Below, piece after piece: positions 6,832 through 29,454 of a stretch of DNA of 64,000 nucleotides (its first letter is position 1; the number at the start of each line of letters is the position of its first letter). The stretch comes from Botryllus schlosseri (taxonomy: Eukaryota), in assembly GCA_051294905.1 (NCBI GenBank), contig CM119371.1, forward strand, positions 186,001 through 250,000. The letters are read 5' to 3'. Under the pieces are notes generated by a model. It was given only the letters and a program-made list of their open reading frames with translations. It did not search any database and was not told the DNA's origin. The translations under genes and the position numbers were made by a program.

Positions 6832-9800
6832 TAAGGGCGATTTTTTGACATGTCAAAAAAGTCAAAATTAGGTCAAAATTGTAGCGTTTGGTCAAAAAAT
6901 GTCAAAATTGTTGACAAAAACAAAAAAAAATTGCCACCTGCATTTCGTTTGTGTCGTAGATTTTGCACTGTCTATGAACTTACCATTTTACATTTTACAG
7001 CTTGTAGCCCACTTCATAGGCCTACCGTTGTAGACGGCCCGTTGTCTGCTCATTGTGAATTATGAACATTCAAATTAAACGTGGTTGACGTGCTGTTATG
7101 CTTAACGTACCGCAATATCCTAAGTGAAGCAAGACTCCATAGGCATTGCATGGTTTTTATATCAAGAAGCGTATTGTGAAAAGTTGTGATGTCCACCATT
7201 GTCAGAATGAAGCAATACGGTGTGCTACCAGCAGTGTACGCACAACATCGGTGTTGTCAGCCAACAGCTGCTACAGTTAAACATTCTCTCTCCATTCTTG
7301 GCAAGCTACTTAGTAAGGACAGACACTTTCTACTAGGGATGGTGTGAACCTCTGAAAGGTTCAGGTTCGTGTGAACGCGAACCTTTTTGAAAGGTTCTGT
7401 GTGAACACGAACGTGAACCTCATGACGTCACGTGACGTCATATTGCTATTTCGTACCTTATCTGTCAATGAAGTGATAGCCTATATTAACGAACACGATA
7501 CCTATAGCGACGACTCGGGCCGCATCATGTCACAATGCAGAACTACATGTTGGCGTTTTAAACGTCACTAAATGTATCAACTGAGGCAATCAAAGGATAT
7601 AACACTTCTATAAAATCAATATCTTCCGTCGCTTTGCCAACAATTTCGACGAGGGCTTACCAGGGAATATAAGCTTACGCCTTAACGGTCTAGGCTAGAC
7701 AGGACAATTAATGTATTCGGTGTCTGAGTATCGCTACATTGATATTGAGCAGAGTGTAAAACTGGTTTCTATATTTGCTACCGATATTACCCCATTAACA
7801 AGTTTTACAGCAGTAGCCAACACCTCAATCACAAGGATTTGGTTTTCGTGATGTAGTAAAGATATGAGGTCCAGATTGCCCCGTACTCCTGCTAGCTTTT
7901 TTGCATCAGAAAACGATATCAATCTCATTAATTGGTTAAGCATCATTCGCTGACTACGTATTTCGCTCGTGATGTTGTGTTATTGCAGGTCAAACTCACA
8001 GCAGAGAGACTCTAAATATTCACAAACGGAAAGCTGAATATTTCGAGCAAAAATTTGTTACAAAGCAAGTAAAACTTTTGAGATTGTCAAGGTGCATGCT
8101 CGTTTATAGTGTTGATTTTTAATGCTGCCAGCGCCATGGATAGAGTGGCCCGCAGTTGAAATGCAATTAATATGAACCAAAGATGTTATAATCAAAGCCG
8201 TAACAGCACTTCGTCAGCCCCCCCAAACATTGGTCTTGGGCCCCCCATAGGGGTATAGACCGAACGTGATAAAACGACCCCCCCCCCATCACGTTGTTCG
8301 CGTTTTTCACGAAATTATCCGTAGTGTATTGTGAGCCAGCGCGAAGCGCGAAAATTTTCTATAATTTATGATAAAATCGGTTTAACGAAATATATTGTTC
8401 ACGCCATTTTAAGATTTGAGCAATAGGGAGTGTTGTGAACCTTACCTAATTCCCTGAAGTGAAAACCCGAAAGACCTTCGTGAGTCGTCTATTTGTCGTG
8501 TGAATTATAGATAAGAGAAATAAATCGTACGATCTTTGGTGCATGTAATCTCTCGTGGCTATGATATATATACGAATGTAACACAGCGTATATACACGTT
8601 AATTCATCATTATTAGCTGATTCGGAAGTCTATTGCATTGCCGTACGTGATTCAATAAAGTTACAAGTCGTGGAGACAGAAACAAAATATATTCGTCAGT
8701 GTGATCCATCGAATACATGTGCAATAGACAGGTCGTGGTACGTCAGACAACAAGGCCGTACGGCTTGGTTACGCCGGTCCGTCAAAAGAAGAAACACGCA
8801 GCGAATTGTAAACGCAACCTTCTGGAGTCAGATAAAACACAATTATACAACTACAAACATTCGCTCTGCGTTATAATTGGTCAATCAGATCGGCGACTGC
8901 ATATGTAATATGCTATCAATTTATGGTCCTCTCTACTCACGTAATTAGATTTACCGGTAGAGGTGAGTGAAGTGTCTTGAAAACGGGAGGGCTCGTAAAT
9001 AATGATTAAACATCTTCGGGCGGGTGGAACCGTTGATATGACTTCGTTACATGATGTTATTTCGTGACTTCCAGTCTGCCATATCAAAAAATATAGAACC
9101 GCCCCAACGTAGGCTTCTAAACTAAGAGAAGCACACGATTTCAAATTGATATTTCTTCACTGGCATAAAATTTTTTCCAGCGGGATGGTATTTGTCTTGT
9201 GAGGTTCAGATTGCAATGACAGGAACATTCGGCGCCAGTCATTTAGGCGCCTATTGACAATTAAACCTATATGTATTTTGTATATATAGCGAAGTCTTTG
9301 ATCTGCATAAGGGCATAGACCTTTTCGGCCAAGCTTTTCTCGCTGCCAATCGTTCTGGCACACTTCTTGGAGTCGCATGTTATATGGCCTAAAACTTGAA
9401 TGTATGTCTTGGTGGGTCGTGGCGCGGTAATGGCCCAATACCCAATAATAAAGATAAATGGCTACTTGCATTCGAGCGCAGCGCGAAAAATTTTTGAAAA
9501 AATTGCATAAATTTTCAAAATATACTCTATGATTTATGCTAATTCGCGAAATAATTTTGGGCCCCCATCGAACTCGCCCCCTCCCCCCCCCAATTGGGGG
9601 GTTTGGGGTGCGGCAGTTACGGTGCTGGTTATAATGAAGTGAAAATTGTAATATATGAAAAAGGTTCACAGTGCAGAACCTACCAAGGTTCTGTTGTGAA
9701 CGCGAACCTCCAAATTTCCGAGGTTCACACACAGAACGCGAACGTGAACCTCACGTTCACACCATCCCTACTTTCTACCCGAGAATGTAGGAAAGTATCT

Positions 9801-14167: not shown

Positions 14168-15223
14168 CAGCGGTCGGGAACCTTTTTTGGACGAAGAGCC
14201 ACATTGACCCAATATTTTCAAATCTGGCTCCCAAAGAGCCATAAATGTCAATTCACTGTTACGACACAATTGAAAATTTGTGACGTATTGGTAGCACTAT
14301 TACATGGGATTCATAGTGTGCCGCATATTTTCTCCGCTCATATGCGGGGAGCCAAACATGGTCACTACAGCAGTACATACATTGAAACCTTCCATGATTA
14401 TTGGTATTTTCTATCGACGTTTATGAATAACTAGATTTTGAACTTTTTGGCTCCGAAAATCAAGCAATTTTCAAATTTATTGTGCGAAAATAGAGCGGGG
14501 AAGGCGAGTTAAGGCACATGTGAGGCACAGACAGGCCAAGCCTCGTCTGTGATAGCGCAACTCTTCGTAAATAGCTTATAATTTTGATCACTGATATTAA
14601 TCGAATGCAATTGTCACACTGATTCCGAATCTCTAAATATTGATCGACTTCTCCAGTATTCGACTAACAAAACGTTGCGCTACACACCTACAGGCGGTAT
14701 ACTAGAAAGCTATAACCTACCAATCAAGAACATGGATAGCTATATGTTGTTGTTTTGAATTTGAATTTCTAATTGAGAATGTCACTTTCAAGGCAGTTCA
14801 TTTCTCGGCGTGGATCAGGAAAAAAAGTGTATTTGATAACTGCATTGTCATACAAGCGTCGCCATGCCTGCTATTTTCCATGATCAATCAAGGTATCGTG
14901 CAATCCAAAATTACGAGGCGCGCGATGTCGTGTAGATCGAATTCGCGAGTGATGTTATAGTTACAGGCGCGTCAGCAACTTAAAAAATTGAGGATTTTGA
15001 TAAGGGGACACAAGTCCCTAACCCTGGATTCCCCGCTGTATTGACCTCTCTAAGACATGTTTAGGCTACTACGAGAATAAATATTCGGGCCGTTATGAAA
15101 ATTTACTATCATGTTGCTGCAATATTGATAAATTTATCACAAAATTAAAAATTTATTAAAGAGCCATATCTCATAACCAAAAGAGCCATATATGACTCGC
15201 GAGCCATAGCTTCACGACCACTG
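14168..15223. mobile_element. hAT (Charlie-like) MITE
   Basis: Termini CAGCGGTCGGGAAC / GCTTCACGACCACTG, perfect 8-bp TSD TGCTATAC (14160-14167, 15224-15231), and GAGCCA subterminal repeats. Confidence 0.9.
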
Positions 15224-15680: not shown

Positions 15681-16134
15681 TAGGCTTACCATATTTTGGA
15701 AATCAAAAAAGAGGACACTTCTTCAGAAATGTTCAACTTGCAAAACCGGAGTAAAATTCTCAAAAACCGGTTAATTTTTCCCACTTTGTGATCGGTTGAC
15801 TAAAAAAAAAAAAAAAAAGGTCTTCACTTCTGCTCAGAGCTCAAAATAACGTTTTTTACTCCACATTGCCAGGTGGATGACTAAAAAAAAAAAAGAAGGT
15901 CAGCTTTTCGCTCAGAGCTAAAATCCCCGTTTTTAACTCCGAAACACCCGCCGGAGCTTCACTTCTGTGCTAATATGCGGCATATCACTCGCGATTTGCT
16001 CTAAATCTGCCTAAATTTTCAAAAAAGAGGACAAAATCTCAAAAAAGAGGACAAAAGGGCGTCCTCCGAGGACACTTTCAAAAAAGCCAAAAAAGAGGAC
16101 AAATCCTCTTAAAAGAGGACGTATGGTAAGCCTA
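15681..16134. mobile_element. MITE with TAGGCTTACCATA TIRs and a 7-bp TSD
   Basis: TIR TAGGCTTACCATA / TATGGTAAGCCTA, flanking direct repeat AGATAAG (15674-15680, 16135-16141), and multiple AAAAGAGGAC subterminal repeats. Confidence 0.88.
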
Positions 16135-16486
16135 AGATAAGCCACTCACAATGTATTATATTTGGATAGTAAAGGCAGAATTGTTATGGTGAATGGTATA
16201 TAACTATAAATAAAAATGTGTCTGTAGGGCCTACAATGAAGGCTGCTTTCCATACTGAGATAGGATTAATCAGAATGAAATTATAAATGAATGAAATGTT
16301 GACATCGTGGTGTGAAAGATTAAAACAATATTAGGCCTACACTGTAAAAAATATCCTTGGTAAATCCCGAGCTTAGGCTCGGATATGACTCGATTCAACC
16401 CGTTTCCTAGTTTTTTCCCCAAAACGTCGACTCGTTTTCAGTGCATTCCGAGTCACGCGAGATGTCAACCGCATGCGAGGTTGGAA

Positions 16487-16641
16487 ATTACCGAGGATAC
16501 CATTACCGAAGCTGGAACCTTACCGAGAATGGTCATTACCGAGAATAGACACAACCGAGAATGGACATTACCGAGAATACCATTACCGAGAATGGACCCT
16601 ACCGAGAATATACATTACCGAGAATGGTCATTACCGAGAAT
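16487..16641 (+). repeat. Subterminal tandem array of ~10 copies of a 14-16-bp (CA)TTACCGAGAAT unit
   Basis: Directly visible. The core TTACCGAG(GATA) also occurs within the right TIR. Confidence 0.9.
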
Positions 16642-17071
16642 TTAATTGCTCAGCGCGTTGATAAGCGCGCGTATTCAAATGTTCGACGCGTGCGTATTTC
16701 ATTGTTCACGACAGATCAGGGATCGCTAATTAACAGCACTTTCGGACTCGTCGACAAGCTTATCATACGTCTATAATCGCCAATACGGGGATGTTGTATA
16801 ATCGTTGTTTACGCATCGCATGTACTTAACCCTAATGAGTCAATGCTACGTTACTAAATTCGGAAAAAATCGAAACCAGCACCCCCTTTTATTTCAACCC
16901 CCCCTTGTTTTTCGGCTGGCTACGCGCCTGGCTATTACTCACACTGGCTTACAGAAAAGCATTACACATATATAAGACAACCAATGAATCTTGTGATTTT
17001 ATTACTTCTCCAACCTATCATATCAGGCAATTATCAACCGTCGAATTTTTCGTCATTTGTCACTGATCAAA

Positions 17072-17896
17072 TCAAGCCTGTTGTCCGCTGCTGGCTTCGT
17101 CAAGGTCAGCTCCCCCTACAATCTGCCAGAGGGCGTCGGTTTCTGGGATGACAGCTTCCGATTTCGACTTCTGAAGTTCGAATTGCTGTGACCATGTGAT
17201 CTGATGGGATCTTTTAAATTCTGTTGCTTGTACTTCGCTCACTGGGACGCAATGTCGATAATACAGGAGCTTCCACATTTGCCGGATCGTTGGTTTGAAG
17301 GAACTAACACCCAAAATTTCTGACATGGCGTCGCCGTCTAGTTGAAGATTCGTCCCGCAGACTCGGATATTTCGAACATCCATATATGTGGCAATTAACA
17401 CTATGATCACAATATCTTTGAGAATTCGTTTGCGTAGGCCACACGTGGAGTGCAATAAGTGGTATAGCTCATCCGAGATCAAAAATCTCTGTTCATTTGG
17501 TCGGCGAAGGATTTTTTTATAGCTGTCTTCATCTGCCATGATAATACTGGGTATGTCCTCCAAGATGCCGTATTGTTTCTTGAAAATTTTATAAATCGTT
17601 TCCGTTCGTCTAGTCTGCTTTTTCACGTCATCAGCAACTGTCTTCAAATACTTCATTACTTCTTGATTACTGCGTAATATCCTTTCTTGAGATTCCCAAA
17701 TAACGTGGAAATCATTGCGAAGCTGCAATATTTCTGTGCAAAAATCCACCGTTTCAGGCATGTTATGTTCACAAGACGTACTGTACACGCATGTGAGTAT
17801 ATAGTCTTTGTCAAAACAGCACTCCAGCATGCACTGAAAGTGATTACATGTGAGTATGGTCTTTGTCAAAACATTTTTGTCAGTGGAAAATTCCAT
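17072..17896 (-). CDS. Transposon-borne hypothetical protein (274 aa from ATG 17896, or 229 aa from ATG 17761); predicted coiled coil plus possible BEN-like domain
   Basis: A 900-nt stop-free frame inside the TIRs, head-to-head with the transposase. It has a heptad-like segment LRNDFHVIWESQERILRSNQEVMKYLKTVADDVKKQTRRTETIYKIF. The segment ILKDIVIIVLI..MDVRNIRVCG...LDGDAMSEIL loosely fits the BEN pattern, judged by eye only. Confidence 0.6.
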   Translation of the reverse strand: MEFSTDKNVLTKTILTCNHFQCMLECCFDKDYILTCVYSTSCEHNMPETVDFCTEILQLRNDFHVIWESQERILRSNQEVMKYLKTVADDVKKQTRRTETIYKIFKKQYGILEDIPSIIMADEDSYKKILRRPNEQRFLISDELYHLLHSTCGLRKRILKDIVIIVLIATYMDVRNIRVCGTNLQLDGDAMSEILGVSSFKPTIRQMWKLLYYRHCVPVSEVQATEFKRSHQITWSQQFELQKSKSEAVIPETDALWQIVGGADLDEASSGQQA

Positions 17897-18069
17897 TGTA
17901 AAATCGGGAGTTGAGATTACATCATCAAAGTTTCCCCAACTATTTGCTAGAGAGAGGTCTTTTGAGGTCAATTATTTGCCGCGCGAGTGGATGCGCGTGC
18001 GTACCACGCATTTCGCCAGAACACAGCAGAGTTAACGAACGCGGTGAAGTTTCACGCCGACAGACGGCC

Positions 18070-20409
18070 ATGAATTGGGTTTGTCCGGCATCAGGTTGTA
18101 TTTCTAATCAGTTTTCATCGCGAAAAGCCTTGCTGAAACATGTGCGCAGAATTCATCGTTTCTGCAACACTTTCAACTGCAAGATGGAGCCGTGCAATGG
18201 TAAAATTCCACCGTTTTCGACTTATCATAGCTTCAGGATGCATCTTAACCGCGAGCATGTGAAACGAACAGTGTTAAACTCAGATTTTGAAGCAGATCTG
18301 CGCGTTTCCACCCTAGAACAGTCGGATCAGTCACAGCAAGAGACTGGGAAAGTTAATGACAGTTTACCAAACATTCATGATGTATTTTTGCGGTTTGCTT
18401 TGCAATGTCGCGAAAAACATCTGTTGCCAATTTCGGTATCCCGTGACATCTTATTCGGCGTAGTTGAGCTTTTAGAAGCATTTAAAAATGCTTGTGCTAC
18501 CAACAATGTTGATAATTTGCCAGATCTGAGGCAAATGATGGATCAAACACAGAGTGACTATCAATTTAAGAAATGTTTAACAAGCATAGGTCTTGTTGAG
18601 CCCGTTAAAGTGCTTTGTGAAGGGGATGAGGACCAATCATATCAATATATTCCCATATTAAGTACTCTGAAAAGATACTTGGAACACAAGGATGTAATTG
18701 AAAGTGTAGATGCGAATATGTCTTGTTCTTCTGCTCATGGGTTTCTGTGCAACTTCTGCGATGGGGATTTGTTTAAAAATAATCACTTTTTTAAAGGTGA
18801 TCAGAGTTTGCTGCGCATCCATTTATATTTAGATGATGTCGAAATTTGTAACCCATTGGGGAGTTCGAGAAGTATACACAAGCTTACTTGCTTTTATTTT
18901 ACGCTTGGAAATGTGGAAGTGAAGTTTTTGTCGAACTTGAGGAATATTCATCCGGTCTTGATTGTAAAAACTTGCACAGTGAAAAAAATGGGATATCATG
19001 CGATAGTCAAGCCGTTAATTCAAGATTTAAAATCCCTGGAAACATCTGGAATGGATGTAACTCTTTGGAATGGCATGACAAGGCATTTCAAAGGTAGCAT
19101 AGCAACAGTCACGGGTGATAATTTAGCAAGTCATGACATATCTGGGTTTCGTCGTTCATTCAGTAGCGGTCGTATTTGTAGATTCTGTATGTGCCATTAT
19201 TCAGATTTAACTGTGAAATTTTCTGAAACAATGTTTGAATTGAGGTGTCCATCCAACCATGAGCTGCATGTCCGTGATGTAGCAAGGCACTCATCACTCG
19301 AGAGAGCATATGGAGTGAGAATGAGTAATCCATTTTCTGATCTTTTAGCGTTTGATGTGATTCATTGTAATGTTTTCGACGTTATGCATGATATCATGGA
19401 GGGCTGTCTCGTTTTAATCCTGGAACTTGTCATAAACAAGTTGATCATTCAAGATTGTGACATGACAAAGTCAGATTTTATTGAACTTGTGCAACAATTC
19501 CCCTATGGCAAGTATGAAAGCCGTAATAAGCCTCGCTACAAAGGTAAAGTTTCGACATTGACTGCAACGCAGAGCTGGTGTTTCTTCAATCATCTGAGTT
19601 TCATGGTCGGTACAAAAATCGATGAACAAAATGATGTATGGGAATTGTATTTGCTGTTATCAGATATATGTGACATTGTATTTGCTAAACGTGTTACGGT
19701 TCAGATGATTCATTCACTAGATGTGCTGGTTGTTGATTTTTATAGCGCGGTGTTGAAGCTGGCACCAGAAATAATTAAGCCGAAATTCCACTACTTATTA
19801 CACTATGCGACCGCAACGAAAATCTGCGGCCCGATCTCTCATTTGTCCTCTCTTAGATTCGAATCTTACCATCAGATCGTAAAAAAAATTTGTAGAATTT
19901 CTGGAAACTTCAAAAACATAACTCATACTGTAGCCACTCGACTTCAGTACAGAAAATGTTGGGAAATGTCTTCACTCAATTGTTTGCATGATGATCCAAT
20001 GAATATCGAGCTCGTAAACATATCATGGAAAGATATACCAAGCCACTATGTTGCATTTCTTGGAATACAAGATATGGAAGGACAAGTATGTTCTTCGAAA
20101 TTCTATGACAATGGATATGAAACATATGGTAGGCAGGGGATTTATGTTGTAAATGAGGATGATGATGGACCAATATTTTGTCGTGTACAATATATTCTTT
20201 ATTTCAATGAACAGTGGCACATGTGTGGTGAATTGCTGAAGTCGAGATTTGTACGACATTTACACTGCTATGCTGTGGAGGAAACTGGTACTGTTTACGT
20301 ATTTCAGCCCGGGGAATTATTTTACCAAAGGCCCCATGATGCATACTTCATTGGCAAATCACAGTACATTAGGCTGCATCAACAAATATGTTTCAAGTTT
20401 GAACCCTAA
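18070..20409 (+). CDS. CACTA/EnSpm (CMC) DDE transposase, 779 aa, with two N-terminal C2H2 zinc fingers
   Basis: The first ATG is at 18070; the ORF track starts at an upstream TTG. Zinc fingers: CPASGC..HVRRIH and CKMEPC..HLNREH. Catalytic-region motifs: LYLDDVEICNPLG, TGDNLASH, CRFC (Cx2C), DVMHDIMEG, KPKFHYLLHY (Hx3H) and LRFESYH. There are no stops or frameshifts. Confidence 0.93.
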   Translation: MNWVCPASGCISNQFSSRKALLKHVRRIHRFCNTFNCKMEPCNGKIPPFSTYHSFRMHLNREHVKRTVLNSDFEADLRVSTLEQSDQSQQETGKVNDSLPNIHDVFLRFALQCREKHLLPISVSRDILFGVVELLEAFKNACATNNVDNLPDLRQMMDQTQSDYQFKKCLTSIGLVEPVKVLCEGDEDQSYQYIPILSTLKRYLEHKDVIESVDANMSCSSAHGFLCNFCDGDLFKNNHFFKGDQSLLRIHLYLDDVEICNPLGSSRSIHKLTCFYFTLGNVEVKFLSNLRNIHPVLIVKTCTVKKMGYHAIVKPLIQDLKSLETSGMDVTLWNGMTRHFKGSIATVTGDNLASHDISGFRRSFSSGRICRFCMCHYSDLTVKFSETMFELRCPSNHELHVRDVARHSSLERAYGVRMSNPFSDLLAFDVIHCNVFDVMHDIMEGCLVLILELVINKLIIQDCDMTKSDFIELVQQFPYGKYESRNKPRYKGKVSTLTATQSWCFFNHLSFMVGTKIDEQNDVWELYLLLSDICDIVFAKRVTVQMIHSLDVLVVDFYSAVLKLAPEIIKPKFHYLLHYATATKICGPISHLSSLRFESYHQIVKKICRISGNFKNITHTVATRLQYRKCWEMSSLNCLHDDPMNIELVNISWKDIPSHYVAFLGIQDMEGQVCSSKFYDNGYETYGRQGIYVVNEDDDGPIFCRVQYILYFNEQWHMCGELLKSRFVRHLHCYAVEETGTVYVFQPGELFYQRPHDAYFIGKSQYIRLHQQICFKFEP

Positions 20410-20553
20410 AGATAATTGAGCTTATACAGTGCAGTATGTTGATCGAAAAATATTGCTTTCACAACTTTTTTGCAATTTTCATTATTTTGATTATGACCAT
20501 TGTATTTTACAGATACACAAAACACTAGCGCTGTGATTGTTGTACAGTTGAAT

Positions 20554-23500
20554 ATGAAACTGCTGGTTAGTTATGGTGACAGTAAAAGAGTGATCAGAGT
20601 TGATCACCAATCTGAGGTTCCTGATGTTGTGAGAAATGTATTTCATGATGAAATTGGTGACAATCAATTCAAAATGGAATATTACGACAAGACATTTGAT
20701 TCGTACGTCGATCTTCATGACATGTCGGAAATTGTAGATGGACTAATGTTGCGGCTGATTTTGAGCACCAGTGGCAGTAAGTGAAATGTAGGATCAGTAG
20801 GCTCATTCATGAGAGAGATGAATACCGTAAAACGGGGTAACATTGGACAATTTTCAACAATTCCGCTTTGTATCTTGGAAATGCTAGGGTGTAGGGGAGG
20901 CAAGTTTTGTGTTTTTTTGGAGTCATGGAGCAAAGATTAGAATTAACTAATCCAAAACCTTCATGATCATAAATAAGTACCTTATTTTTGTAAATTATCT
21001 GTGTCCAAAGTTTTGAATCTATGAATCACATGCTATCTATGTTTGGCTGTAAGAAGTTTATTGGCCATCAATTTTGGCGAAATTGACCCCCTCCATTAAT
21101 TTATCGATGTTGGGTCAAGTTTATCTGGTAGTGAAATGAATCCACCTTTTATAAAGACTACTTGCAGTACTGCTGCCTCATGAAAAAGAATTGGACATCC
21201 AGCGGCAACCCTTTTTCATCAATAACCATTTAAATCTTTTACTGCTTAGTGTCCAAAGTTACCCTTAAGTCCAAAGTTACCCCGGTTTACGGTATTTACC
21301 TATACTCATATTTTTCTTGCAATAAATTAGATTAGAATTAGAATACTGTCATTTCGCAATAATTTTTTGAAATTACGCAACTATAATTATCTACCGTAGT
21401 TCTCCAAGTCTGATCAGATGTGCCTTGGCGAAATAGATTCACCCCTCATCGAGTCTATTTTTATTGGTGCAGAGGGAACCTATCCGAAAACCAACAACTC
21501 TGTTGTTGAACAAAGTGACTTGGATATACTCGGCTCCGATTGCACCAGCACGATGGCTTCAGGAGGGCAATCTAACGAAGACGTAATGCATAGTGAAACG
21601 TCAAGCATTGACAATGTTGGATACTGCTGTGATTCTTCATTTCCTAACCTGCCTGTTGAAGATTTTGAACCTGAAGGTATTGACTTACGGTGAATTATTA
21701 ATATTTTCCTCATTCCTTATCCTTCTCTTCAGATGAAAGTATATCAAACAGTACCTTGTCGAGCTCCAAGGCATCTACCAGTTCAGCAGATTGTGACGAA
21801 AACAACAAACCATTGCCATGGCCCAACGAATATAGGATTTCTTTACCAAAAGCCATAGAAAAGGAAGTGAAGCAGTATGAAAAGACAAAAGTACTTCCAC
21901 AAAAATTGAGACTGAAAATTGTTCATCACCTGTTTTGGGACCTGCTGCAATACACTAGGTGACCTACAATATAAATAATAAACCTTTCTTGTATATGACG
22001 ATAATTGCAGTGGCCTAAAACAGTCATTATTCCTAGTCTATATCCCACAAGACAACAATACGATGCGCCAGTAGCTGCTTTGATAACGAAATATCCTTGG
22101 ATGCAAGATCGTTTGAAATTCGATGGATGTGAAAATTTCGTGAGCTGCTTGTGTTTGAACATTCCAAACATTTCTTCAAATATCTTACGTTGCAGCATTC
22201 TTGGAAAAAACAGCTCATAACCCAGTTCCAGGAGTACCGTAGGGGCCGTAAAGATCCTCTCGTTACGGAAAAAAAGCAAAAACACGGAAAACACCGTCAG
22301 GGTAAACGGAAACATACCGACGACCTTGTTGTGGAAACATCGAGTGAAAGGTGCACCAAACCTCGAATGTCATCATGCATTGTAAGAATTTTCAAATCCT
22401 TCATTGTTCATTAACGTTGGTTACCTGTATAACGGGTGAGAGGGGGAATATTGAGGATATTGATATTGAGCACAAGAGAATAGCATATTTTGAAACGGTC
22501 CTGTCAATACCTATATCTATACCTATATCTATAGGTACAGCCCGTTCATCTGGAAAGTTGGGGCAATCTTAGCAGTCTACTCAAAACTTGCCTACAATCC
22601 TAATAGAAAACTCCAGACTCCAAGCCAAGCAAGAGTATTTTATAAATATAATTTTTTTTTAATAAATCGATTCCTCAATATTTTTGTGGGGGCCGAAACA
22701 CGGGTAGCTGGGGGCCGCGGTTGGGAATCACTGGTCTATAACGAACAGCGTCACGCGAATTTTTCAACGCATGGGTTCCCAAACTTTTTATATTCTCAAT
22801 CTCAAACTTTTATTGGAAAATACCCCGCGACCCGCCTCCGCAGAATATTGAAGAAATTGGTCTGTACCTTCGCCCAAACCTACTCTCGGCCTATGCGAGA
22901 GTCTATCGACTATATTTGCGCAGTAATAGCAATTACGCAATTATAAACTCGTCAAAACTTGACGATGAAAAATGCCTCTGACCATCTCTGATTAGAAAAT
23001 ATATTTTTTCTTGTAGATTCCAACCGTATACCCGCCGGAAGATGAGCGTAGCATCGAAGCGCACCAAAAGGAAATTATGACTGAGTGGAAAAGAAGCCGA
23101 AATGCTGATAAAGACACAATCATGGATAGGATGAAAAGGACCTTTAAAGATCGTCGACATGAAGTTATCAAAGGGACATCAACAACGAGTCTGTTGCGTG
23201 CGTACCCAGTTTTGGCAGATGCTCATTGGGTAGGTATAAAGCAGGGGTCTCCAACACGCGGCCCGCGGGCCGCATGCGGCCCGCGAGGTCCTATTTTGCG
23301 GCCCGCGACCTGATTTGAAAAAAATTCAGAAAAACGCTTAGTAAATCATGTTGAAACGCTAAAATTGATTTCAGTTGAAACAGAATGTTGTTGTTTTTCA
23401 AAGTGAGCCATTCTATGTGCCCACTATCACTATTACTCACTAGTTGATACGGCTTCGGCATGGTAATATCATTCCATGGATGCAGAATTTGCTGGTACGA

Positions 23501-25868
23501 ATGGGCATATTGCCTTGACGTGCAATGGCCCACCACTGCCAAGACCGAGACGCCTGCAAAACGACTTCGGGCGCTCCAAAAGACCATGCTTTACGAGGAG
23601 ATAGTTGTCTAGCAAGTAGGCCTACCGTGTATAGCTATTAGCTAACCCCAATATTGATTCTTCAATCCATGGGTGGCCAATCTGCAGCAGTAGAAGGAAA
23701 ATTATGCGGCTGTCGACACTTGTATAATAACAACCCTAAGTTTTCACAGATACCCCCTGCATCAGCTGTATCTGGGAATCTGATCACATTGGCCGAGAAA
23801 GGATAAATATTTTATAGTAATATGTGAAACTATACTAATATTTATTGACGAAATTCACTCGTGAACATGAAAAATTTTTCGCGCTTCGCGCGACTACAGA
23901 TTGGTTCTCTGTGGCTCTTTACAACATAACTACTAACGATTTGGTGCGCATAGTAAGCCGATATGTGCATATAGATTAGTTCGGAGTGTACCGGCAATGG
24001 ACATGGACATGATAACGTGGGTATTTGGCCCCAGCTAGTTTATCACGACTAACCACCGGTATGCGGCCGCAGGCTACATGAGTACGCGAGATGCGGCCGT
24101 GAATTACAAAAATGTTGGCCACCCCTGTTTTCAGTCAAATTGAAGACCATCCATGGCATATGCTATGAAGTCAATATTTTCAACTGTTCAGATTTTGGAA
24201 GAAATGAAAATGATTTGTCAGAAACAAGATTGTTCCGACGATACTTACTCTGTCGACCTGACGTCAAAGATTTTGGAGAAGAGTTATAGCTCAGCATCAC
24301 GATACATAGTAGCGGCGGATAGTCCTTTGGAAATCACGAACTTATATAGTAAGCATATAATTACAATACTCGAAACAATCGTTTTTCATTACAATTTATA
24401 CTGGATTCCTATTCGAGTACTCGAATTATTGTGCCCTACGCATGTGTCAACGTACCCCCTTTACTTGATAAACCGCAAAAGTTCGAACTTACGCTGACTA
24501 CGTTATTTGTTATTTCGGGAATCATTTTCTGTCCTTTAAGTGCTTAATCTGAGTTGGCACTTCGTTTTCAGGTACTCAAAAACTGGACTGGATGGTGTAC
24601 ATCCCAACGATCTTCAAAGAGAAGTATGACAACTTCCTGATTGTGGACAAGGTGTGTTGATCATCGGTATCTCTCAAAATGCAGCTAAACATTTCCACCC
24701 ATTCATTACATAATTTTGGACATTTAAAATGGCCTCTGTCAGTATTGTTTTCACAGTTCGTACTTAATTTAATTTGAGACGATATGATATGACCACATGA
24801 TGTATCTTGTAGAATATTGATATGTGCTCGTGTTGATCTACGCCAGGGGCGGGCAACTTCTCCAGTCAGCGGGCCGGATGTAGGAAAATTAAGTACTTGG
24901 CGGGCCGGATAGCTGAATCAATACATTATTAGCCCATTTATCCTCATATACAAAGAATAAATCGCATGTAATGAATGTATTGTAACGACACCTATGTCAT
25001 TTCAAAGCCATTTCTCGCCGATGTTGAGGAAGACAATGTGGATTTGAGAACATCATTGTCATACAGGCGCCACCATATCTGCTTCTGTCTGATCGATCAA
25101 CACATGTTGCAATCCTTAATTAAGATTTCAAGGCGTTCGATAACCCCGGTACCACAAATTTACCAAGATATCAATCCATTTTGGTTGAGTACATCGTAAA
25201 TGCCGATAATGAAAGTCTTCTCGCGTCTACGAACTTACGCGTAAGCTCTCCTGTGGCACGCATTCCCGGTAATGGTTTTCTCGATATTGACCCGACACCG
25301 GCGGGCGGGCCACATTATCAACTAAGACGGGAAACTGTCCGCGGGCCGGACAAAATCGCCTCGCGGGCCAGATCCGCGGCCCGCCCCTGATCTACGCCTA
25401 TTGTTTTCCAACTTATTTTCACTGAACAACCCCGCATCAAGCTTGATATTTCCCAATGGGTTATAATTAATTAATTAAATATAATTTACATAATGTTCCA
25501 GCTTCTGCCTACCCGCCCACATTATAAATCACTGATCCATAAACCTCACACTCTTTTAAACTATTCCATGGATACTGGATAGTAACATTTATATTTCGTA
25601 GGAGCCGAAGAATGTCTATCCGACCATCGCATTCAATTCTGAGACGGAAAAGTGGACGATTCATTTCGATGGAGAAGTTGTGAAAGGTTTATTTGGTTTT
25701 CACCATGCTCTAGCATGCCTGATGGCTATTTATTGGGTTTTCAATGTGAAGTTTGCTCCTTCATCATCAAACTCCTTGAACTTTGTCGCAACTTTTCTCG
25801 CCAAGCTTCCAAACGTCAAACCAACTAATGCTGTTCGCAACAAGATAAACATGACACTCAACGATTAA
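20554..25868 (+). CDS. EnSpm accessory (ORF2) protein, 9 exons, 552 aa; SAMD3-like C-terminal region and possible PB1/ubiquitin-like N-terminus
   Basis: GT-AG exons: 20554-20776, 21473-21676, 21733-21958, 22037-22139, 22196-22381, 23017-23229, 24192-24348, 24572-24651, 25602-25868. They total 1659 nt with compatible phases and no internal stop. Motifs LYPTRQQYDAPVAALITKYPWM, SWKKQLITQFQEYRR, MKRTFKDRR, LLRAYPVL and ALACLMAIYWVFNVKF resemble the second ORF of animal EnSpm elements, often annotated SAMD3-like. Confidence 0.85.
20825..21292. mobile_element. Tc1/mariner-pogo type MITE in intron 1 of ORF2
   Basis: TA|CCGTAAAACGGGGTAACATTGGAC ... GTCCAAAGTTACCCCGGTTTACGG|TA, with a TA TSD. Confidence 0.88.
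23242..24127. mobile_element. Composite hAT (Charlie-like) MITE(s) in intron 6 of ORF2
   Basis: Left end CAGGGGTCTCCAAC...GCGGCCCGCGGGCCGC, an internal second left end at ~23669, and right end GTTGGCCACCCCTG. No clean TSD. The interior is related, inverted, to ~28390-28600. Confidence 0.7.
24844..25389. mobile_element. hAT MITE in intron 8 of ORF2
   Basis: CAGGGGCGGGC / GCCCGCCCCTG termini and perfect 8-bp TSD ATCTACGC (24836-24843, 25390-25397). Confidence 0.92.
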
Positions 25869-26339
25869 TTGTCATATTATGATTTGTGGCGGTCCTGTTT
25901 TTGCCCTCTTTGATGACTGCCAGCAGTAATATCTTGTGTTGTGACGCTTAGCATTGGTTTTTTAATTAATCGATGCTAGTCCTTGTCGATATCAATTCGC
26001 AATATATTTGTAATGGTCGTGGGCGTGGCCCAGAGTTTGGTCTTTTGATTATATTTTTGGAATGCTTAACGTATTGGCAACCAACTGGCCTAAACCTTAT
26101 AAGCACCAATGTTCAATTGTTGGCACCATCACAGCGTGCTCATTACATAATAAAATTTTCAACTTGAACAACAAACATATATTGTTTGTTTACCTGAAAT
26201 AATTACGCATCATTATTAATTTGTGACACTGCAGGTTTCCAATATTGCTGATTGTATACTTTTATGAAACAATGCTTTATTTGCTGCTAATATACACTGC
26301 TTTTTAATCTGCAGACTGACTACTGATTTTGTGTGTTTA

Positions 26340-26455
26340 AGGTGAAAGGTCAATGACAATTATTTGTCAGGCTCGGTTTCTTGCAATCCTAGTCAGTCAG
26401 CACAGCTGGGATTTGGCTGAGGTGAAAGGTCAATGAAAATATAGGTGAAAGGTCG
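26340..26455 (+). repeat. Three subterminal AGGTGAAAGGTC(A/G)ATGA repeats (DR1-like)
   Basis: Copies at 26340, 26420 and 26443, near the right TIR. Confidence 0.85.
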
Positions 26456-26799
26456 ATGAAAATTATCAATAAGGGTCGGTTTTTTCCAATCCGAGTAATG
26501 GAAAACTCGGGATTTACCTACTTTAATGAGGTCGGAAAGTAGTTTCCCGGGTCACAAGTCGGATAATTTTGAACCTAACCTAATGTCGGGATTTACCGAG
26601 GATATTTTTTACAGTGTAATTCGAATTACTGATTGTAAGGACGAGAGTATTCGTTGCCGACTATATTTTTGTTGAAGGTTTTGGCCAACCATAGCAACGA
26701 TCATTTATGGCCACAGTTATATAGCATTTATCCTGCGTTTTAGTACCGAATTTTGGCCGCATCCACAGGCCAAAACTTCATGTCTATATGTGTCCAGGC

Positions 26800-27340
26800 G
26801 CACTGATTAAATTGTCAGGTTACCCTCGAACACGCTGCACACCAAATTTGGTTCAATTCTAACATGTATTAGCCGCCGCAGAACCAATTAAAATTTTTAA
26901 TTTATATCGAAAAAAATAATAATTCTGTGAGCCCCATGAAGTTGTTGAGTTGTCTTCGAAAACGAAGCAAAACAAATTTGACTCAATTCCAACCCGTAGA
27001 AGCGGAGTTATTGCAGTTGAAATTTCTGGATTTGCAAAAATGGCATTGACGGTGAATATAATCCCACAATTATAAATCAAAAACTACAAAAACTCCGCTT
27101 CGACGCGTTGGAGTTGAGTCAAATTTGTTTTGCGTCGTTTTTGAAGAAGACTCATCAATTTCATGGGGCTGACAAAACATTTCGAATTTTTTTCATAATA
27201 AATCAAAAATCTAAATTGGCTCTGCGGCGGCTTACACTTGTTAGAATTGAACCAAATTTAGTGTGCAGCGTGTTTAAGGGTGACCTGACAATTTAGTGAA
27301 CGGCCGAAATCCGGAAAAAAGGTTAATTTTGAACAACTCT
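26800..27340. mobile_element. Palindromic MITE, truncated; related copies at ~41537-41761 and ~59210-59594
   Basis: AAATTGTCAGGTTACCCTCGAACACGCTGCACACCAAATTTGGTTCAATTCTAACA (~26808) is inverted at ~27238-27294. The related copies end in ...AACAACCCTA. Confidence 0.75.
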
Positions 27341-28724
27341 GTTCCAATGTCCATTAGGGTTGACTGAACTATAAGTTTAACTGAATTTCACATCGGACCC
27401 TTTTTAACATTGACCTGCAAAGCTCTCATTTGAATATTTGCTACTGCCATCAAGTGCGACTCATCTGGTACTTACAGGGGACTTGGTGCCCGCGAGCTCT
27501 GCGTTACTGACTCCTTCCTCAGACAATAGCTTTTGTAGTAAAACAAAACTGATCGTTTCGCAAACTGGCTTGTATTACTCTGCATTTACTGCGATATATA
27601 CGACGCGCCTTAATGACGTGACTTGCTTAGTCTATAAGGAAAATGCCTCTACTGCATCGATGACGATACTTCTTAGGTCGCATACATCTACAAACTGGCG
27701 AGATAATAGCTCACCTACACATCCATAAGATAATATCCCACCTGCACATCTATAGGATACAATGTAAATTTACATAAATTGTCCACGAGTAATATAAACG
27801 CATACACTGTATACGTTCGATTTGAATAATACAAAGCATTTTTTTAATTGAGTACTGACAGAATTACAATGCTATAGATCAGTGGTGGACAAACTACGAC
27901 CCGTGAGCACATTTTCTGCGTCCCTCGAGAATGTAACAAGTATCGATAAAATCCGTAGTAAAATATGGTCACTGCTGCAACTTGATTAAATATTATCTTG
28001 ATATTTTTCATAATGGTATTGATACGTTACAGTCTAAAGTAGCGGTCGCCAACTCAACTTCGTAGAGACCGCGGGCCGCAAGAATGCAATAAAGAGACAA
28101 AAAGGCCGCACACTATAGCAGTCACATTTTCAAAACTTGACGTCAATACAACGCTGTGCTCTCTAACATGCACGACGAGCATATTTCCAATAAAAGAGGT
28201 GATTTATTAAAGAAATGCAAACGCAACAAGAAATCACCAATATCTTTATATATTCAACTGTGAGCTGCGCACGATACCTGACAACACATTTCAGCGACCA
28301 AGGAATCAATAACGGGTCCAGCGAGACACGGTACCAGCTGAAAGACTACCTCATTGGTCTTCTGAGAAAGCCCTAATCCGTTTTTTAAGCGTCTTGGTCT
28401 TGGCAGTGGACCATTGTACGTCAAGGTAATATACCCATTTATATCATCTCATTCCCCCTCAATGAAGTGCTGTTTACTTCGCCAGCGAGTTACAGCGAGT
28501 GAGAAACATTGATACTGGGCACAGTGGAATAGATTATATTGCGATAACAACAACAAAAACAACAATACTTTGAAACCAGAAATCAATTTCGCCATTTCCA
28601 AATGCTTTTCTTAATGTTCTTTTCAAATCTGAAATCAAATCGCAGCTCGCAAGATACGACCTGGCTGGACATGTGCGGCGCGGCCCCCCGCGGGCCAAGT
28701 ATTGGTGACCCATATAGTCTAGGC

Positions 28725-29454
28725 CAGGGGTGTCAAACTCAAATTGCGCCGCGGGCCGGATTCAAGCTTTCAAATCGCTCGCGGGCCGGACCAGTAGACT
28801 GATTCCAAAATGTTAATTTGTGCTCTTGCTTTTCACTTGAATGCCTTAAAAGGCATGTGTAGATAATACGCGGATCATAATAGGGATTTTAAAGTAGAAA
28901 GTCGCGACACCTCTATGCGCGAACAATGGAATTCGCAAAAATACGATGATTGTCTGGTCGAACACAGTTAAGAAACGCTAAAACAGTCGCGTTAACGGCG
29001 ATATAAGTTGTCATATCAGGAGGTCTGTTTGGGCGAAAGTGACAGAGCAGTGCGATCATACATATTTCAATTATATATTTGTACAACTAATATATTTTCC
29101 ATGTAAACCGCGTATAACGGTGCCGCATAGGCGTTTTTTTGTGAATAACTACTTTTTGATCCATTTTCTATAAAACTTAGAACTTGGTTTGCACTTTTTG
29201 CTTTCTTGACATTGGGTTTCAATTTCCACGACTTGTTACTAGTGGTAACTAGAGTGAAACCACAGCGCCGTAGTCGGGTGATTATGATAGGGTTTATGAA
29301 CATAGAAGTATTTCCTGCAAAAAATCTCAACAATTGTTACAAATGTGCTGGAAACTATATGGATTTTTCAATCTACTCAAAATTGCTTCGCGGGCCGGGT
29401 AAAATCGTCTGGCGGGCCGGATGCGGCCCGCGGGCCGTATGCTTGACACCCCTG
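28725..29454. mobile_element. hAT (Charlie-like) MITE
   Basis: CAGGGGTGTCAA / TTGACACCCCTG termini and perfect 8-bp TSD GTCTAGGC (28717-28724, 29455-29462). Confidence 0.92.

What the first reader, a model, noticed from the sequence alone, without database searches (positions are those of the whole stretch)
16340..26616. Intact three-gene CACTA/EnSpm transposon, a candidate active element with an extra gene
Seen in sequence: near-perfect 31-bp TIRs, a TA TSD, an unbroken 779-aa transposase with the CMC Cx2C and Hx3H motifs and acidic catalytic candidates, a 9-exon second gene that splices in frame, and a third long ORF on the opposite strand. Established: plant CACTA elements use TnpD plus TnpA, and animal EnSpm elements usually show a transposase plus one accessory ORF. 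Inference: this is a young, possibly mobile family with a three-component organisation. It is the only intact coding unit in a window otherwise full of decayed sequence.
Basis: partly seen in the sequence, partly recalled or inferred. Interest (0 to 1): 0.82.

Follow-up and report, generated by a model that had tools for sequence, protein, structure and literature searches.

The report
Intact two-gene EnSpm-like transposon, orphan ORF
This is a structurally intact copy of a common animal cut-and-paste DNA transposon carrying its usual transposase and helper gene, and the supposed third gene is an orphan reading frame that relatives lack, so the find is largely ordinary.

Summary
The ends at 16340 and 26616 are 31-nt inverted repeats starting CACTG, identical at 30 of 31 positions and flanked by TA. 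The 779-aa transposase is unbroken and keeps the D-D-E, Cx2C and Hx3H residues of the CMC (CACTA/Mirage/Chapaev) group. A 9-exon, 552-aa second gene reads in frame. RNA reads or contigs show 7 of its 8 introns, and the DNA run shows none of those joints. A 274-aa ORF lies on the opposite strand.

The transposase has 9152 database relatives. The second gene is its regular partner: 31 of 32 distantly related loci with at least 2 kb of downstream sequence carry it, on the same strand and in the same exon order. Its first exon folds as a ubiquitin/PB1-like domain.

The third ORF looks coding. However, it has one near-copy (87% identity) and no other relative, is absent from all 80 related loci, got no reads in the RNA run, and lies in a low-copy segment of the family.

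Verdict: a new member of a known kind. A three-gene design is not supported, and current mobility is plausible but not shown.

The parts
16338..16339 (.). left flanking TA (candidate 2-bp target-site duplication)
   Evidence: not verifiable from one copy
16340..16370 (+). left terminal inverted repeat, begins CACTG
   Evidence: 30 of 31 positions match the right end
16482..16641 (+). 5' subterminal array, about 10 copies of a 16-nt unit carrying TACCGAGAAT; the same motif lies inside both TIRs
   Evidence: 17 motif matches in the window against 5.4 expected, 9 of them in this array
17072..17896 (-). ORF3, 274 aa, orphan ORF divergent from the transposase gene
   Evidence: no RNA reads in X23 and low DNA depth
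18070..20409 (+). transposase gene, single exon, 779 aa: N-terminal tandem C2H2 fingers plus DDE core with Cx2C and Hx3H
20554..20776 (+). ORF2 exon 1 (start ATG 20554); ubiquitin/PB1-like beta-grasp domain
20816..21301 (.). nested MITE-like repeat in ORF2 intron 1 (33-nt inverted arms)
   Evidence: I2; summed DNA depth about 23,000-29,000 in X1
21473..21676 (+). ORF2 exon 2
   Evidence: an X13 contig piece begins exactly at 21473
21733..21958 (+). ORF2 exon 3
   Evidence: (joint 21676>21733)
22037..22139 (+). ORF2 exon 4
22196..22381 (+). ORF2 exon 5 (basic, Lys/Arg-rich)
23017..23229 (+). ORF2 exon 6 (most conserved exon of the family)
   Evidence: (joints 22381>23017, 23229>24192)
24192..24348 (+). 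ORF2 exon 7
24572..24651 (+). ORF2 exon 8
25602..25868 (+). ORF2 exon 9 with stop codon
   Evidence: (joint 24651>25602, 32 reads in X23)
26340..26463 (+). 3' subterminal repeats (3 copies of AGGTGAAAGGTCAATGAAAAT-like unit)
   Evidence: (D6)
26586..26616 (-). right terminal inverted repeat, ends CAGTG
   Evidence: a spliced X10 contig ends at 26614
26617..26618 (.). right flanking TA

Best explanation
The segment 16340-26616 is one structurally intact autonomous copy of an animal CMC/EnSpm-type cut-and-paste DNA transposon. It has the two-gene layout that is normal for its clade.

Transposase: it carries two N-terminal C2H2 zinc fingers and a DDE catalytic core with the Cx2C and Hx3H motifs. 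By inference it recognises the CACTG inverted repeats, cuts the element out and inserts it with a 2-bp duplication.

ORF2: this 9-exon gene lies downstream on the same strand and encodes a 552-aa accessory protein. Its parts are an N-terminal ubiquitin/PB1-like interaction domain, an acidic Ser-rich linker, a basic stretch and a conserved C-terminal region. By inference it plays a TnpA-like part, oligomerising and helping to assemble or regulate the transposition complex on the repeated TACCGAGAAT sites near the ends.

ORF3: this is a lineage-specific addition to this copy and at least one close sister copy. It is most likely a passenger (captured or newly arisen coding sequence) and not a required third component.

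Shown: the anatomy, conservation of the catalytic residues, splicing and expression of ORF2, conservation of the transposase-ORF2 pair, and absence of ORF3 from relatives. Inferred: DNA-binding specificities, the role of ORF2, and present-day mobility.
For: Ends:
- TIRs match at 30 of 31 positions and begin CACTG; the terminal 17-mer occurs only at the two ends.
- Subterminal motif arrays are present.

Transposase:
- 9152 relatives at E<=0.001, the best at 58% identity and full length.
- D255, D350, C370/C373, H574/H578 and E598 are invariant in 30 of 30 sequences. [quoted passage not shown]
- Pfam Transposase_21 matches 10 of 30 family members, Plavaka 3 of 30 and DUF4218 3 of 30.
- Profile positions 5-61 match tandem C2H2 fingers of GLI, BCL11A and CTCF (E 8e-9 to 1e-5).

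ORF2 gene model and expression:
- The 9-exon model is in frame with GT..AG introns.
- In the RNA-seq run X23, splice joints for 6 of 8 model introns were seen with 3-32 reads each. A 7th intron (24348>24572) appeared in X10 and X13 contigs. None of these joints appeared in the DNA run X1.

ORF2 conservation:
- tblastn of ORF2 against the 80 related loci gave 26 hits at E<=1, 25 of them downstream on the same strand. Twenty shuffled queries gave 0-1 hits each.
- Exon profiles hit 123 downstream same-strand ORFs and 1 elsewhere among 2846 ORFs. They were found in 31 of 32 loci with at least 2 kb of downstream flank and in 14 of 14 with at least 5 kb. The order was collinear in 28 of 28 loci with two or more exon types.
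- The exon 1 model has pLDDT 94.3; its best fold matches are the PKD ubiquitin-like dimerisation domain and NBR1, p62 and Par6 PB1 domains.

Family activity in the past: DNA contigs joining 18181>21583 and 18188>22320 with filler letters look like internally deleted derivatives.

Known parallels: zebrafish CMC-EnSpm elements with a CACTCAAAAAAATGA TIR and a 2-bp TSD are reported as active (PMC13189230, passages). Animal CACTA-related SmTRC1 has 2-bp repeats in 7 of 14 copies (PMC1636069, passages).
Against: - The window's own transposase does not reach any Pfam threshold. Its only match is Plavaka at 17.3 bits against a cut-off of 26.3, so its sub-lineage within CMC is unresolved.
- The TA 'TSD' rests on one copy and is palindromic.
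- ORF2 has no Pfam match on any of its 9 exons nor on 86 related exons. Its role is therefore inferred only from position, conservation and one domain fold.
- The exon 1 to exon 2 joint was not among the joints shown. Instead an exon 1 to exon 6 skip was seen (4 reads in X23, 1 contig in X10), and in this copy that skip would shift the frame.
- Of 25 listed coding differences between this copy and the reads or contigs, 17 are non-synonymous and 8 synonymous. Copies therefore drift roughly neutrally, and reads cannot be assigned to this copy.
- Against 'passenger': ORF3 is the second longest open frame in 64 kb. Its codon usage fits the element's genes best in its own frame. A sister copy keeps 241 codons open at 87% identity with an in-frame indel.
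Confidence: 0.75

Rival explanations
1. ORF3 is a true third gene of the element. It would be transcribed divergently from a promoter shared with the transposase (174 bp lie between the two ATGs) and would act in transposition, regulation or escape from silencing. That would make this a three-component CMC element.
For: - The open frame is 299 codons stop to stop, in a window with only 3 ORFs of 180 aa or more.
- GC by codon position (0.469/0.335/0.465) resembles the transposase and ORF2. The codon log-likelihood is highest in its own frame (0.041, against -0.04 to -0.31 for the other five frames).
- A second copy keeps the frame open (P0155: 208 of 239 residues identical, with a 1-residue in-frame gap).
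Against: - No relative beyond that one near-copy (lengths 150-480 aa only).
- 0 tblastn hits at E<=1 in 80 related loci, and 0 phmmer hits at E<=10 among their 2846 ORFs.
- Of 34 loci with at least 1.5 kb of upstream sequence, only 5 have any minus-strand ORF of 120 aa or more upstream, and none is similar.
- 0 reads over 16968-17719 in RNA run X23 and 0 depth in X10.
- DNA depth is 20-34 over ORF3, against 55-292 over the transposase.
- No Pfam, PDB or viral-contig match.
- The 13% protein divergence of P0155 is what roughly neutral drift of a 4-5% diverged DNA copy would give (inference from a contig with 7 differences in 155 nt).
Confidence: 0.15
2. The copy is an immobile fossil. Its frames are intact only because it is recent or by chance, and the family no longer transposes in this genome.
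For: - Nested high-copy repeats sit in introns 1, 5, 6 and 8.
- Only contigs at unique-copy depth (about 19-24) match this copy exactly.
- RNA cover of the transposase in X23 is very low (0-2 per bin).
- No empty site or polymorphism was seen.
Against: - All three frames, all 8 splice sites, the catalytic residues and the TIRs are intact.
- ORF2 is spliced and expressed, and transposase-matching contigs 1.5-2.4% diverged are present in X10.
- Related zebrafish elements are reported active (PMC13189230).
Confidence: 0.35
3. The locus is a domesticated transposase and partner gene pair fixed at this site, not a mobile element.
For: Both genes are intact and ORF2 is expressed.
Against: - TIRs and subterminal arrays are preserved.
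- The family is multicopy, with deleted derivatives as DNA.
- Differences among copies are mostly non-synonymous.
- A spliced contig from a diverged copy ends 2 nt from the element's end, as expected of a repeat boundary.
Confidence: 0.03

Closest known systems
Animal CMC-EnSpm elements, e.g. the zebrafish EnSpm-N49/N49B family and its autonomous partner (PMC13189230, passages read)
   Same: Termini begin CACT followed by an A-run (CACTCAAAAAAATGA there, CACTGTAAAAAATATCC here). Both have a 2-bp flanking duplication. Both are large autonomous elements with an intact transposase, multiple copies and deleted non-autonomous derivatives.
   Different: I had no sequence of the zebrafish or Repbase elements to compare, so kinship closer than 'same kind' is untested. 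The passages I read do not describe an accessory gene or an upstream antisense ORF.
Plant En/Spm (CACTA) with TnpD and TnpA (background as summarised in PMC1636069)
   Same: CACT termini, subterminal repeated motifs, a DDE transposase distantly related to Transposase_21 (10 of 30 family members), and a second element-encoded protein.
   Different: Here the two proteins come from two separate genes and not from alternative splicing of one transcription unit, as far as the joints shown tell. ORF2 has no Pfam match at all, including to the plant TnpA family. The flanking repeat is 2 bp, not the 3 bp I recall for plants. The transposase carries N-terminal C2H2 fingers.
SmTRC1 and other animal 'TRC' CACTA-related elements (PMC1636069, passages read)
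   Same: Animal host, 2-bp direct repeats at the ends, alternative splicing, truncated copies.
   Different: SmTRC1 is about 4.7 kb with 54-bp TIRs beginning CCC and a clear Transposase_21 domain. This element is 10.3 kb, begins CACTG, and its own protein does not reach the Transposase_21 or Plavaka thresholds.
Chapaev and Mirage lineages of CMC (PMC4079192 and PMC12730594, passages read)
   Same: CAC..GTG termini and a DDE core with the CMC motifs.
   Different: Chapaev is described with 3-4 bp TSDs (TWA for Chapaev3), whereas here only a 2-bp repeat fits (CTA on the left, TAA on the right). No reference sequences were available to place the transposase on a tree.

Membership tests
CMC / CMCT clade of DDE transposons (EnSpm-CACTA, Mirage, Chapaev, Transib, Plavaka) | [quoted passage not shown] | tested here: met
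   D255, D350, C370-x2-C373, H574-x3-H578 and E598 are invariant in 30 of 30 aligned sequences. The motif definition comes from passages read.
CMC / CMCT clade | Termini 5'-CA..TG-3' (CAC..GTG) | tested here: met
   The element begins CACTG and ends CAGTG.
CMC / CMCT clade | 2-5 bp target-site duplication | tested here: inconclusive
   TA stands on both sides. Only one copy was seen, TA is palindromic, and there is no empty site in the window.
EnSpm/CACTA proper (Pfam Transposase_21, TnpD-like) | Transposase matches Transposase_21 (tnp2) above threshold | tested here: inconclusive
   The window protein has no Transposase_21 match, only Plavaka at 17.3 bits below the 26.3 cut-off. Among 30 family members, 10 match Transposase_21 at E<=0.01 (best 1e-6), 3 match Plavaka and 3 match DUF4218.
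EnSpm/CACTA proper | Subterminal repeated motifs near both ends | tested here: met
   About 10 copies of a 16-nt unit at 16482-16641 and 3 copies of a 21-23-nt unit at 26340-26463.
Plant En/Spm two-protein system (TnpA + TnpD) | Accessory protein homologous to TnpA, produced with TnpD from one alternatively spliced transcription unit | tested here: not met
   No Pfam match of any ORF2 exon at E<=10. No joint linking the region upstream of the transposase to ORF2 exons was among the 15 joints shown; 169 more were not shown. The resemblance is in layout and presumed role only.
The transposase-plus-ORF2 clade defined here by 80 metagenome loci | ORF2-like multi-exon gene downstream of the transposase on the same strand, exons in the same order | tested here: met
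   Found in 31 of 32 loci with at least 2 kb of downstream flank, collinear in 28 of 28. The window shows the same order.
   0 of 80 loci have an ORF3 relative. The ORF3 segment has 20-34 DNA depth against 55-292 for the transposase.

The most novel reading that the evidence does not exclude
ORF3 is a recently acquired, functional third gene of one subfamily of this transposon. It would be expressed divergently from the transposase promoter in tissues or stages not sampled here, and would modulate transposition or host silencing. That would be a snapshot of a CMC element gaining a new component. A second, wider reading is that the conserved ORF2 family is the unrecognised animal counterpart of TnpA. 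Its head is a PB1-like domain here and a different N-terminal exon in other subclades. It may also be the source of domesticated host genes. That last point rests only on my recollection and was not tested.
Probability: 0.15. Interest if true: 0.55.

Novelty: new member of a known kind. Interest (0 to 1): 0.3.

Why it matters
Intact autonomous CMC/EnSpm elements in animals are candidate sources of new transposon tools and of ongoing mutagenesis. This copy gives a clean, RNA-supported gene model for both element genes.

The more useful by-product concerns the 9-exon partner gene. It is a constant companion of this transposase clade, has no Pfam family, and carries a confidently predicted ubiquitin/PB1-like head. 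That makes the old question of what the second protein of CACTA-type elements does in animals testable with a defined pair of proteins and a defined repeated DNA motif.

Tried and rejected
- No whole genome is held for this window, so copy number, TSDs and empty sites could not be surveyed.
- Earlier-findings look-ups by place and by sequence returned nothing.
- Word-based protein searches with ORF2 exon 9 and exon 6 ('longer') found nothing. For exon 9 the 'longer' length window was probably a poor choice, since the assembled transcript fragments encode shorter ORFs.
- Atlas on ORF3 gave only a sub-threshold lead: SWIB-containing giant-virus clusters, score 0.84, a level that shuffled proteins reach a third of the time. 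I do not rely on it. Atlas on exon 6 gave no usable hit.
- The AlphaFold model of ORF3 (2-row alignment) had mean pLDDT 33.8, so no fold search was run on it.
- My impression that ORF3 resembles a BEN domain, and that the alternative N-terminal exon of ORF2 relatives is a SAM domain, is recollection only. Pfam gave no support.
- ORF3 against PDB sequences gave a best E of 0.69. ORF3 against viral contigs gave 7 pattern matches, none confirmed.
- A search for TIR pairs in the longer related loci gave 13 pairs indistinguishable from chance.
- The first MAFFT alignment joining exon 1 and exon 3 relatives (A3) was misaligned and was not used.
- The look-up of sequencing runs listed no holder on record as RNA, so expression was judged only from what was laid.
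- A joint 16134>26832 in one X10 contig lies about 205 and 216 bp outside the element ends, within high-copy flanking repeats. I rejected it as an empty site.
- Literature: four searches found no paper describing this ORF2 family, a third ORF in animal EnSpm elements, or a SAMD3-transposon link. Repbase and Dfam could not be consulted, so prior annotation there remains possible.

Full report
**1. What is at the coordinates**

The element runs from 16340 to 26616 (10,277 bp).

- Its ends are inverted repeats. The repeat finder gives arms 16338-16382 and 26574-26618, 45 nt and 89% complementary.
- Counted from the CACTG ends, 30 of the first 31 positions match.
- The terminal 17-mer occurs exactly twice in the window, once at each end, against 0.01 expected by chance.
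- The flanks read GGCCTA on the left and TAATTC on the right, so TA stands on both sides; a 3-bp repeat does not fit.
- Whether TA is a target-site duplication cannot be settled from one copy. TA is palindromic, the window holds no paralogous empty site, and no genome is held.
- Just inside the left end lies an array of about 10 units of 16 nt (16482-16641) carrying TACCGAGAAT. The same motif, as TACCGAGGAT, is part of each terminal repeat. It has 17 matches in the window against 5.4 expected, and 9 of them lie in the array.
- The right end has three copies of a different 21-23-nt unit at 26340-26463.

**2. The transposase**

- ORF 18070-20409 (+) encodes 779 aa without interruption.
- A full scan of 1.84 billion representative proteins found 9152 relatives at E<=0.001, 5009 at 1e-10 and 1695 at 1e-30. 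The best has 58% identity and aligns over residues 15-775.
- Of ten top clusters looked up, two carry a name, both 'C2H2-type domain-containing protein' of Ciona intestinalis.
- In an alignment with 29 relatives, D255, D350, C370, C373, H574, H578 and E598 are invariant.
- The window protein itself reaches no Pfam threshold; its only match is Plavaka at 17.3 bits against a cut-off of 26.3.
- Among the 30 aligned proteins, 10 match Transposase_21, 3 match Plavaka and 3 match DUF4218 at E<=0.01.
- A profile of the alignment matches tandem C2H2 fingers of GLI, BCL11A and CTCF over positions 5-61 (E 8e-9 to 1e-5). It matches no solved catalytic core.

I therefore place the protein in the CMC group, nearest the EnSpm/CACTA branch. 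Its sub-lineage is not resolved.

**3. The second gene**

I built the model from open frames and splice signals before looking at RNA. The exons are:

| Exon | Coordinates |
|---|---|
| 1 | 20554-20776 |
| 2 | 21473-21676 |
| 3 | 21733-21958 |
| 4 | 22037-22139 |
| 5 | 22196-22381 |
| 6 | 23017-23229 |
| 7 | 24192-24348 |
| 8 | 24572-24651 |
| 9 | 25602-25868 |

- The model gives 1659 nt and 552 aa, has no internal stop, and all introns are GT..AG.
- I then laid one true RNA-seq run (X23, raw reads, about 6% of the run read), two contig sets guessed to be RNA (X10, X13) and one DNA contig set (X1) on 15840-27116.
- X23 shows joints for introns 2 (3 reads), 3 (6), 4 (10), 5 (6), 6 (19) and 8 (32).
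- Introns 2, 5, 6 and 8 fall exactly at the model's sites.
- Introns 3 and 4 fall at the same sites, but the reads come from a copy with one to two base differences at the junction.
- Intron 7 is seen in X10 and X13 contigs from a diverged copy. A rarer alternative donor at 24308 has 2 reads in X23.
- None of these joints occurs in the DNA run, so they are splicing and not deletions.
- The exon 1 to exon 2 joint is not among the 15 joints displayed (169 more were not shown). An X13 contig piece does begin exactly at 21473 and continues for 132 further letters that did not lie there.
- An exon 1 to exon 6 skip is present (4 reads in X23, one X10 contig). In this copy it would shift the frame and stop after 8 codons.
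- Reads cannot be assigned to this particular copy. Of 2106 reads laid from X23, 354 were at least 99% alike.

**4. ORF2 is the regular partner of this transposase**

A scan of metagenome contigs with the transposase alignment returned 80 loci whose transposases are 27-38% identical to the window's.

- tblastn of the spliced ORF2, computed in a script, against all six frames of these loci gave 26 hits at E<=1. Of these, 25 lay downstream of the transposase on the same strand.
- Twenty shuffled queries gave 0 or 1 hit each; 3 of the 20 gave one.
- I built exon-wise profiles by iteration on the downstream same-strand ORFs and then ran them over all 2846 stop-to-stop ORFs of 55 aa or more in the loci. 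They hit 123 downstream same-strand ORFs and one upstream ORF, and nothing on the other strand.
- Because the profiles were trained on the downstream set, their members match by construction. The informative results are the empty other categories and the untrained first-round and tblastn hits.
- An ORF2-like exon is present in 42 of 50 loci with at least 1 kb of downstream flank, 31 of 32 with at least 2 kb, 23 of 24 with at least 3 kb, and 14 of 14 with at least 5 kb.
- In 28 of 28 loci with two or more exon types, the order is the same as in the window.
- No exon of the window's ORF2 (E<=10) and none of 86 related exons (E<=0.01; four sporadic sub-threshold matches to unrelated families) matches a Pfam family.
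- Exon 1, folded with 18 relatives, gives a confident model (pLDDT 94.3) with a beta-grasp fold. Its best matches are the ubiquitin-like dimerisation domain of protein kinase D (E 6.6e-4, TM 0.70) and the PB1 domains of NBR1, p62 and Par6.
- In part of the related loci this exon is replaced by a different conserved exon.

**5. The third ORF**

ORF3 (17072-17896, minus strand, 274 aa) starts 174 bp from the transposase ATG and points away from it.

For its being real coding sequence:
- It is the second longest open frame in the whole window.
- Its GC by codon position (0.469/0.335/0.465) resembles the two element genes.
- A codon-usage log-likelihood trained on those genes is highest in its own frame.

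Against its being a component of the element:
- The only relative found is one 241-aa protein on a 1200-bp contig, 208 of 239 residues identical. That search covered lengths of 150-480 aa only.
- There is no tblastn hit at E<=1 in the 80 loci and no phmmer hit at E<=10 among their ORFs.
- Of 34 loci with at least 1.5 kb of upstream sequence, 7 have any ATG-to-stop ORF of 120 aa or more within 3.5 kb upstream. Five of those are on the minus strand, and none is similar to ORF3 (best blastp E 2.6).
- There is no Pfam, PDB-sequence or viral-contig match.
- The structure model is unusable (pLDDT 33.8).
- In the RNA run X23 the bins 16968-17719 have zero depth, and X10 has zero there too. X13 has one 250-nt contig, but X13 also holds intronic repeat contigs and may contain DNA.
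- In the DNA run the summed depth over 16968-17719 is 20-34. That is the level of single contigs identical to the window (19-24). It compares with 55-292 over the transposase.
- Two variants of 17326-17480 are present, one identical and one with 7 differences in 155 nt.

I conclude that the ORF3 segment belongs to this copy and at least one close sister copy, and not to the family at large. Whether it was captured from a host gene, arose within the element or was lost elsewhere cannot be told here. Since distant relatives lack it, gain is the simpler reading.

**6. Activity**

For a family that has moved:
- Multiple copies exist.
- DNA contigs join 18181 to 21583 and 18188 to 22320 with filler letters, as abortive gap repair leaves behind.
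- A spliced contig from a diverged copy ends 2 nt from the inferred right end, as expected of a repeat boundary.
- Near-identical stretches occur in runs of nine studies, including marine metagenomes and a second species label.

For this copy being competent:
- All frames, splice sites, catalytic residues and ends are intact.

Against, or open:
- Introns 1, 5, 6 and 8 carry nested high-copy repeats.
- Transposase RNA cover is very low.
- Listed coding differences among copies are 17 non-synonymous to 8 synonymous (only the best-supported differences were listed).
- No polymorphism or footprint was available.

Related zebrafish CMC-EnSpm elements, with a similar CACT-plus-A-run terminus and a 2-bp TSD, are reported to be transposing now (PMC13189230, passages read).

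**7. Mechanism proposed**

Shown: the anatomy above. The rest is inferred.

- The transposase binds the terminal repeats through its zinc fingers and carries out DDE cut-and-paste with a 2-bp staggered target cut.
- The ORF2 protein oligomerises through its PB1-like head. It acts on the repeated subterminal sites to assemble or regulate the complex, as TnpA does for En/Spm (role of TnpA as summarised in PMC1636069).
- Which of the two proteins reads the TACCGAGAAT motif is open.

**8. Comparison and verdict**

- The element is a new member of a known kind, the animal CMC/EnSpm-type transposons.
- It is not a member of the plant TnpA/TnpD system in the strict sense: there are two separate genes and no TnpA homology.
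- The three-gene design is not supported.
- I found no paper on the ORF2 family in four searches. Repbase and Dfam, where such elements are usually deposited, could not be consulted.
- Interest is modest. The solid gene model and the conserved, unannotated partner gene are the useful results.

Noticed in passing
window 20816-21301: A MITE-like insertion with 33-nt inverted arms (88% complementary) sits in ORF2 intron 1. Summed DNA depth there is about 23,000-29,000 in run X1, so it belongs to a very abundant family.
   Followed up: partly
window 23237-23586 and 24994-25125: Stretches inside ORF2 introns 6 and 8 match other places of the window at 67-80% identity (2885-2932, 28355-28711, 29388-29454, 43352-43600, 14779-14916). 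They have DNA depths of 17,000-147,000, so they are nested dispersed repeats.
   Followed up: partly
window 16000-16134: The left flank holds a short repeat (CAAAAAAGAGGAC units, 20-nt period) with the highest depth of the whole stretch (464,056 in X1). Many RNA reads end there.
   Followed up: no
window 26800-27016: The right flank is repeated at 27084-27295 (inverted, 84%), 41536-41718 (87%) and 59338-59552 (72%). The element therefore sits among other dispersed repeats.
   Followed up: no
window 20776 to 23017: An exon 1 to exon 6 splice (4 reads in X23, one X10 contig) skips exons 2-5. In this copy it would give a frame shift and a short PB1-like-only product.
   Followed up: partly
L056:8678-8998, L042:5821-6051, L028:5064-5345, L020:5745-6002, L054:8300-8584, L029:3823-4149: In one subclade of related elements the first ORF2 exon is not the PB1-like domain but a different conserved exon (consensus NEIDGxTLxGLTExMISELLPVMKYRVKF). 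It reminds me of the second half of a SAM domain, and of vertebrate SAMD3-like proteins. That is recollection only: Pfam gave no match and a literature search on SAMD3 with transposon found nothing relevant.
   Followed up: partly
L008:5484-6146 and L016:7475-8158: In two related loci the exon 1-like and exon 3-like parts lie in one open frame of 221-228 aa. The intron-exon structure of ORF2 therefore varies within the clade.
   Followed up: no
runs X6-X8, X11, X14: Marine metagenome runs hold 0.29-0.43 of the element's sampled words, and runs labelled with a second organism hold 0.24-0.26.
   Followed up: no
window 9157-9750 (-): This is the only other stop-to-stop ORF of 180 aa or more in the window (197 aa). 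I did not examine it.
   Followed up: no
L050:5349-5561: This is the single ORF2-like hit that lies upstream of its transposase. It may be the tail of a neighbouring element copy.
   Followed up: no
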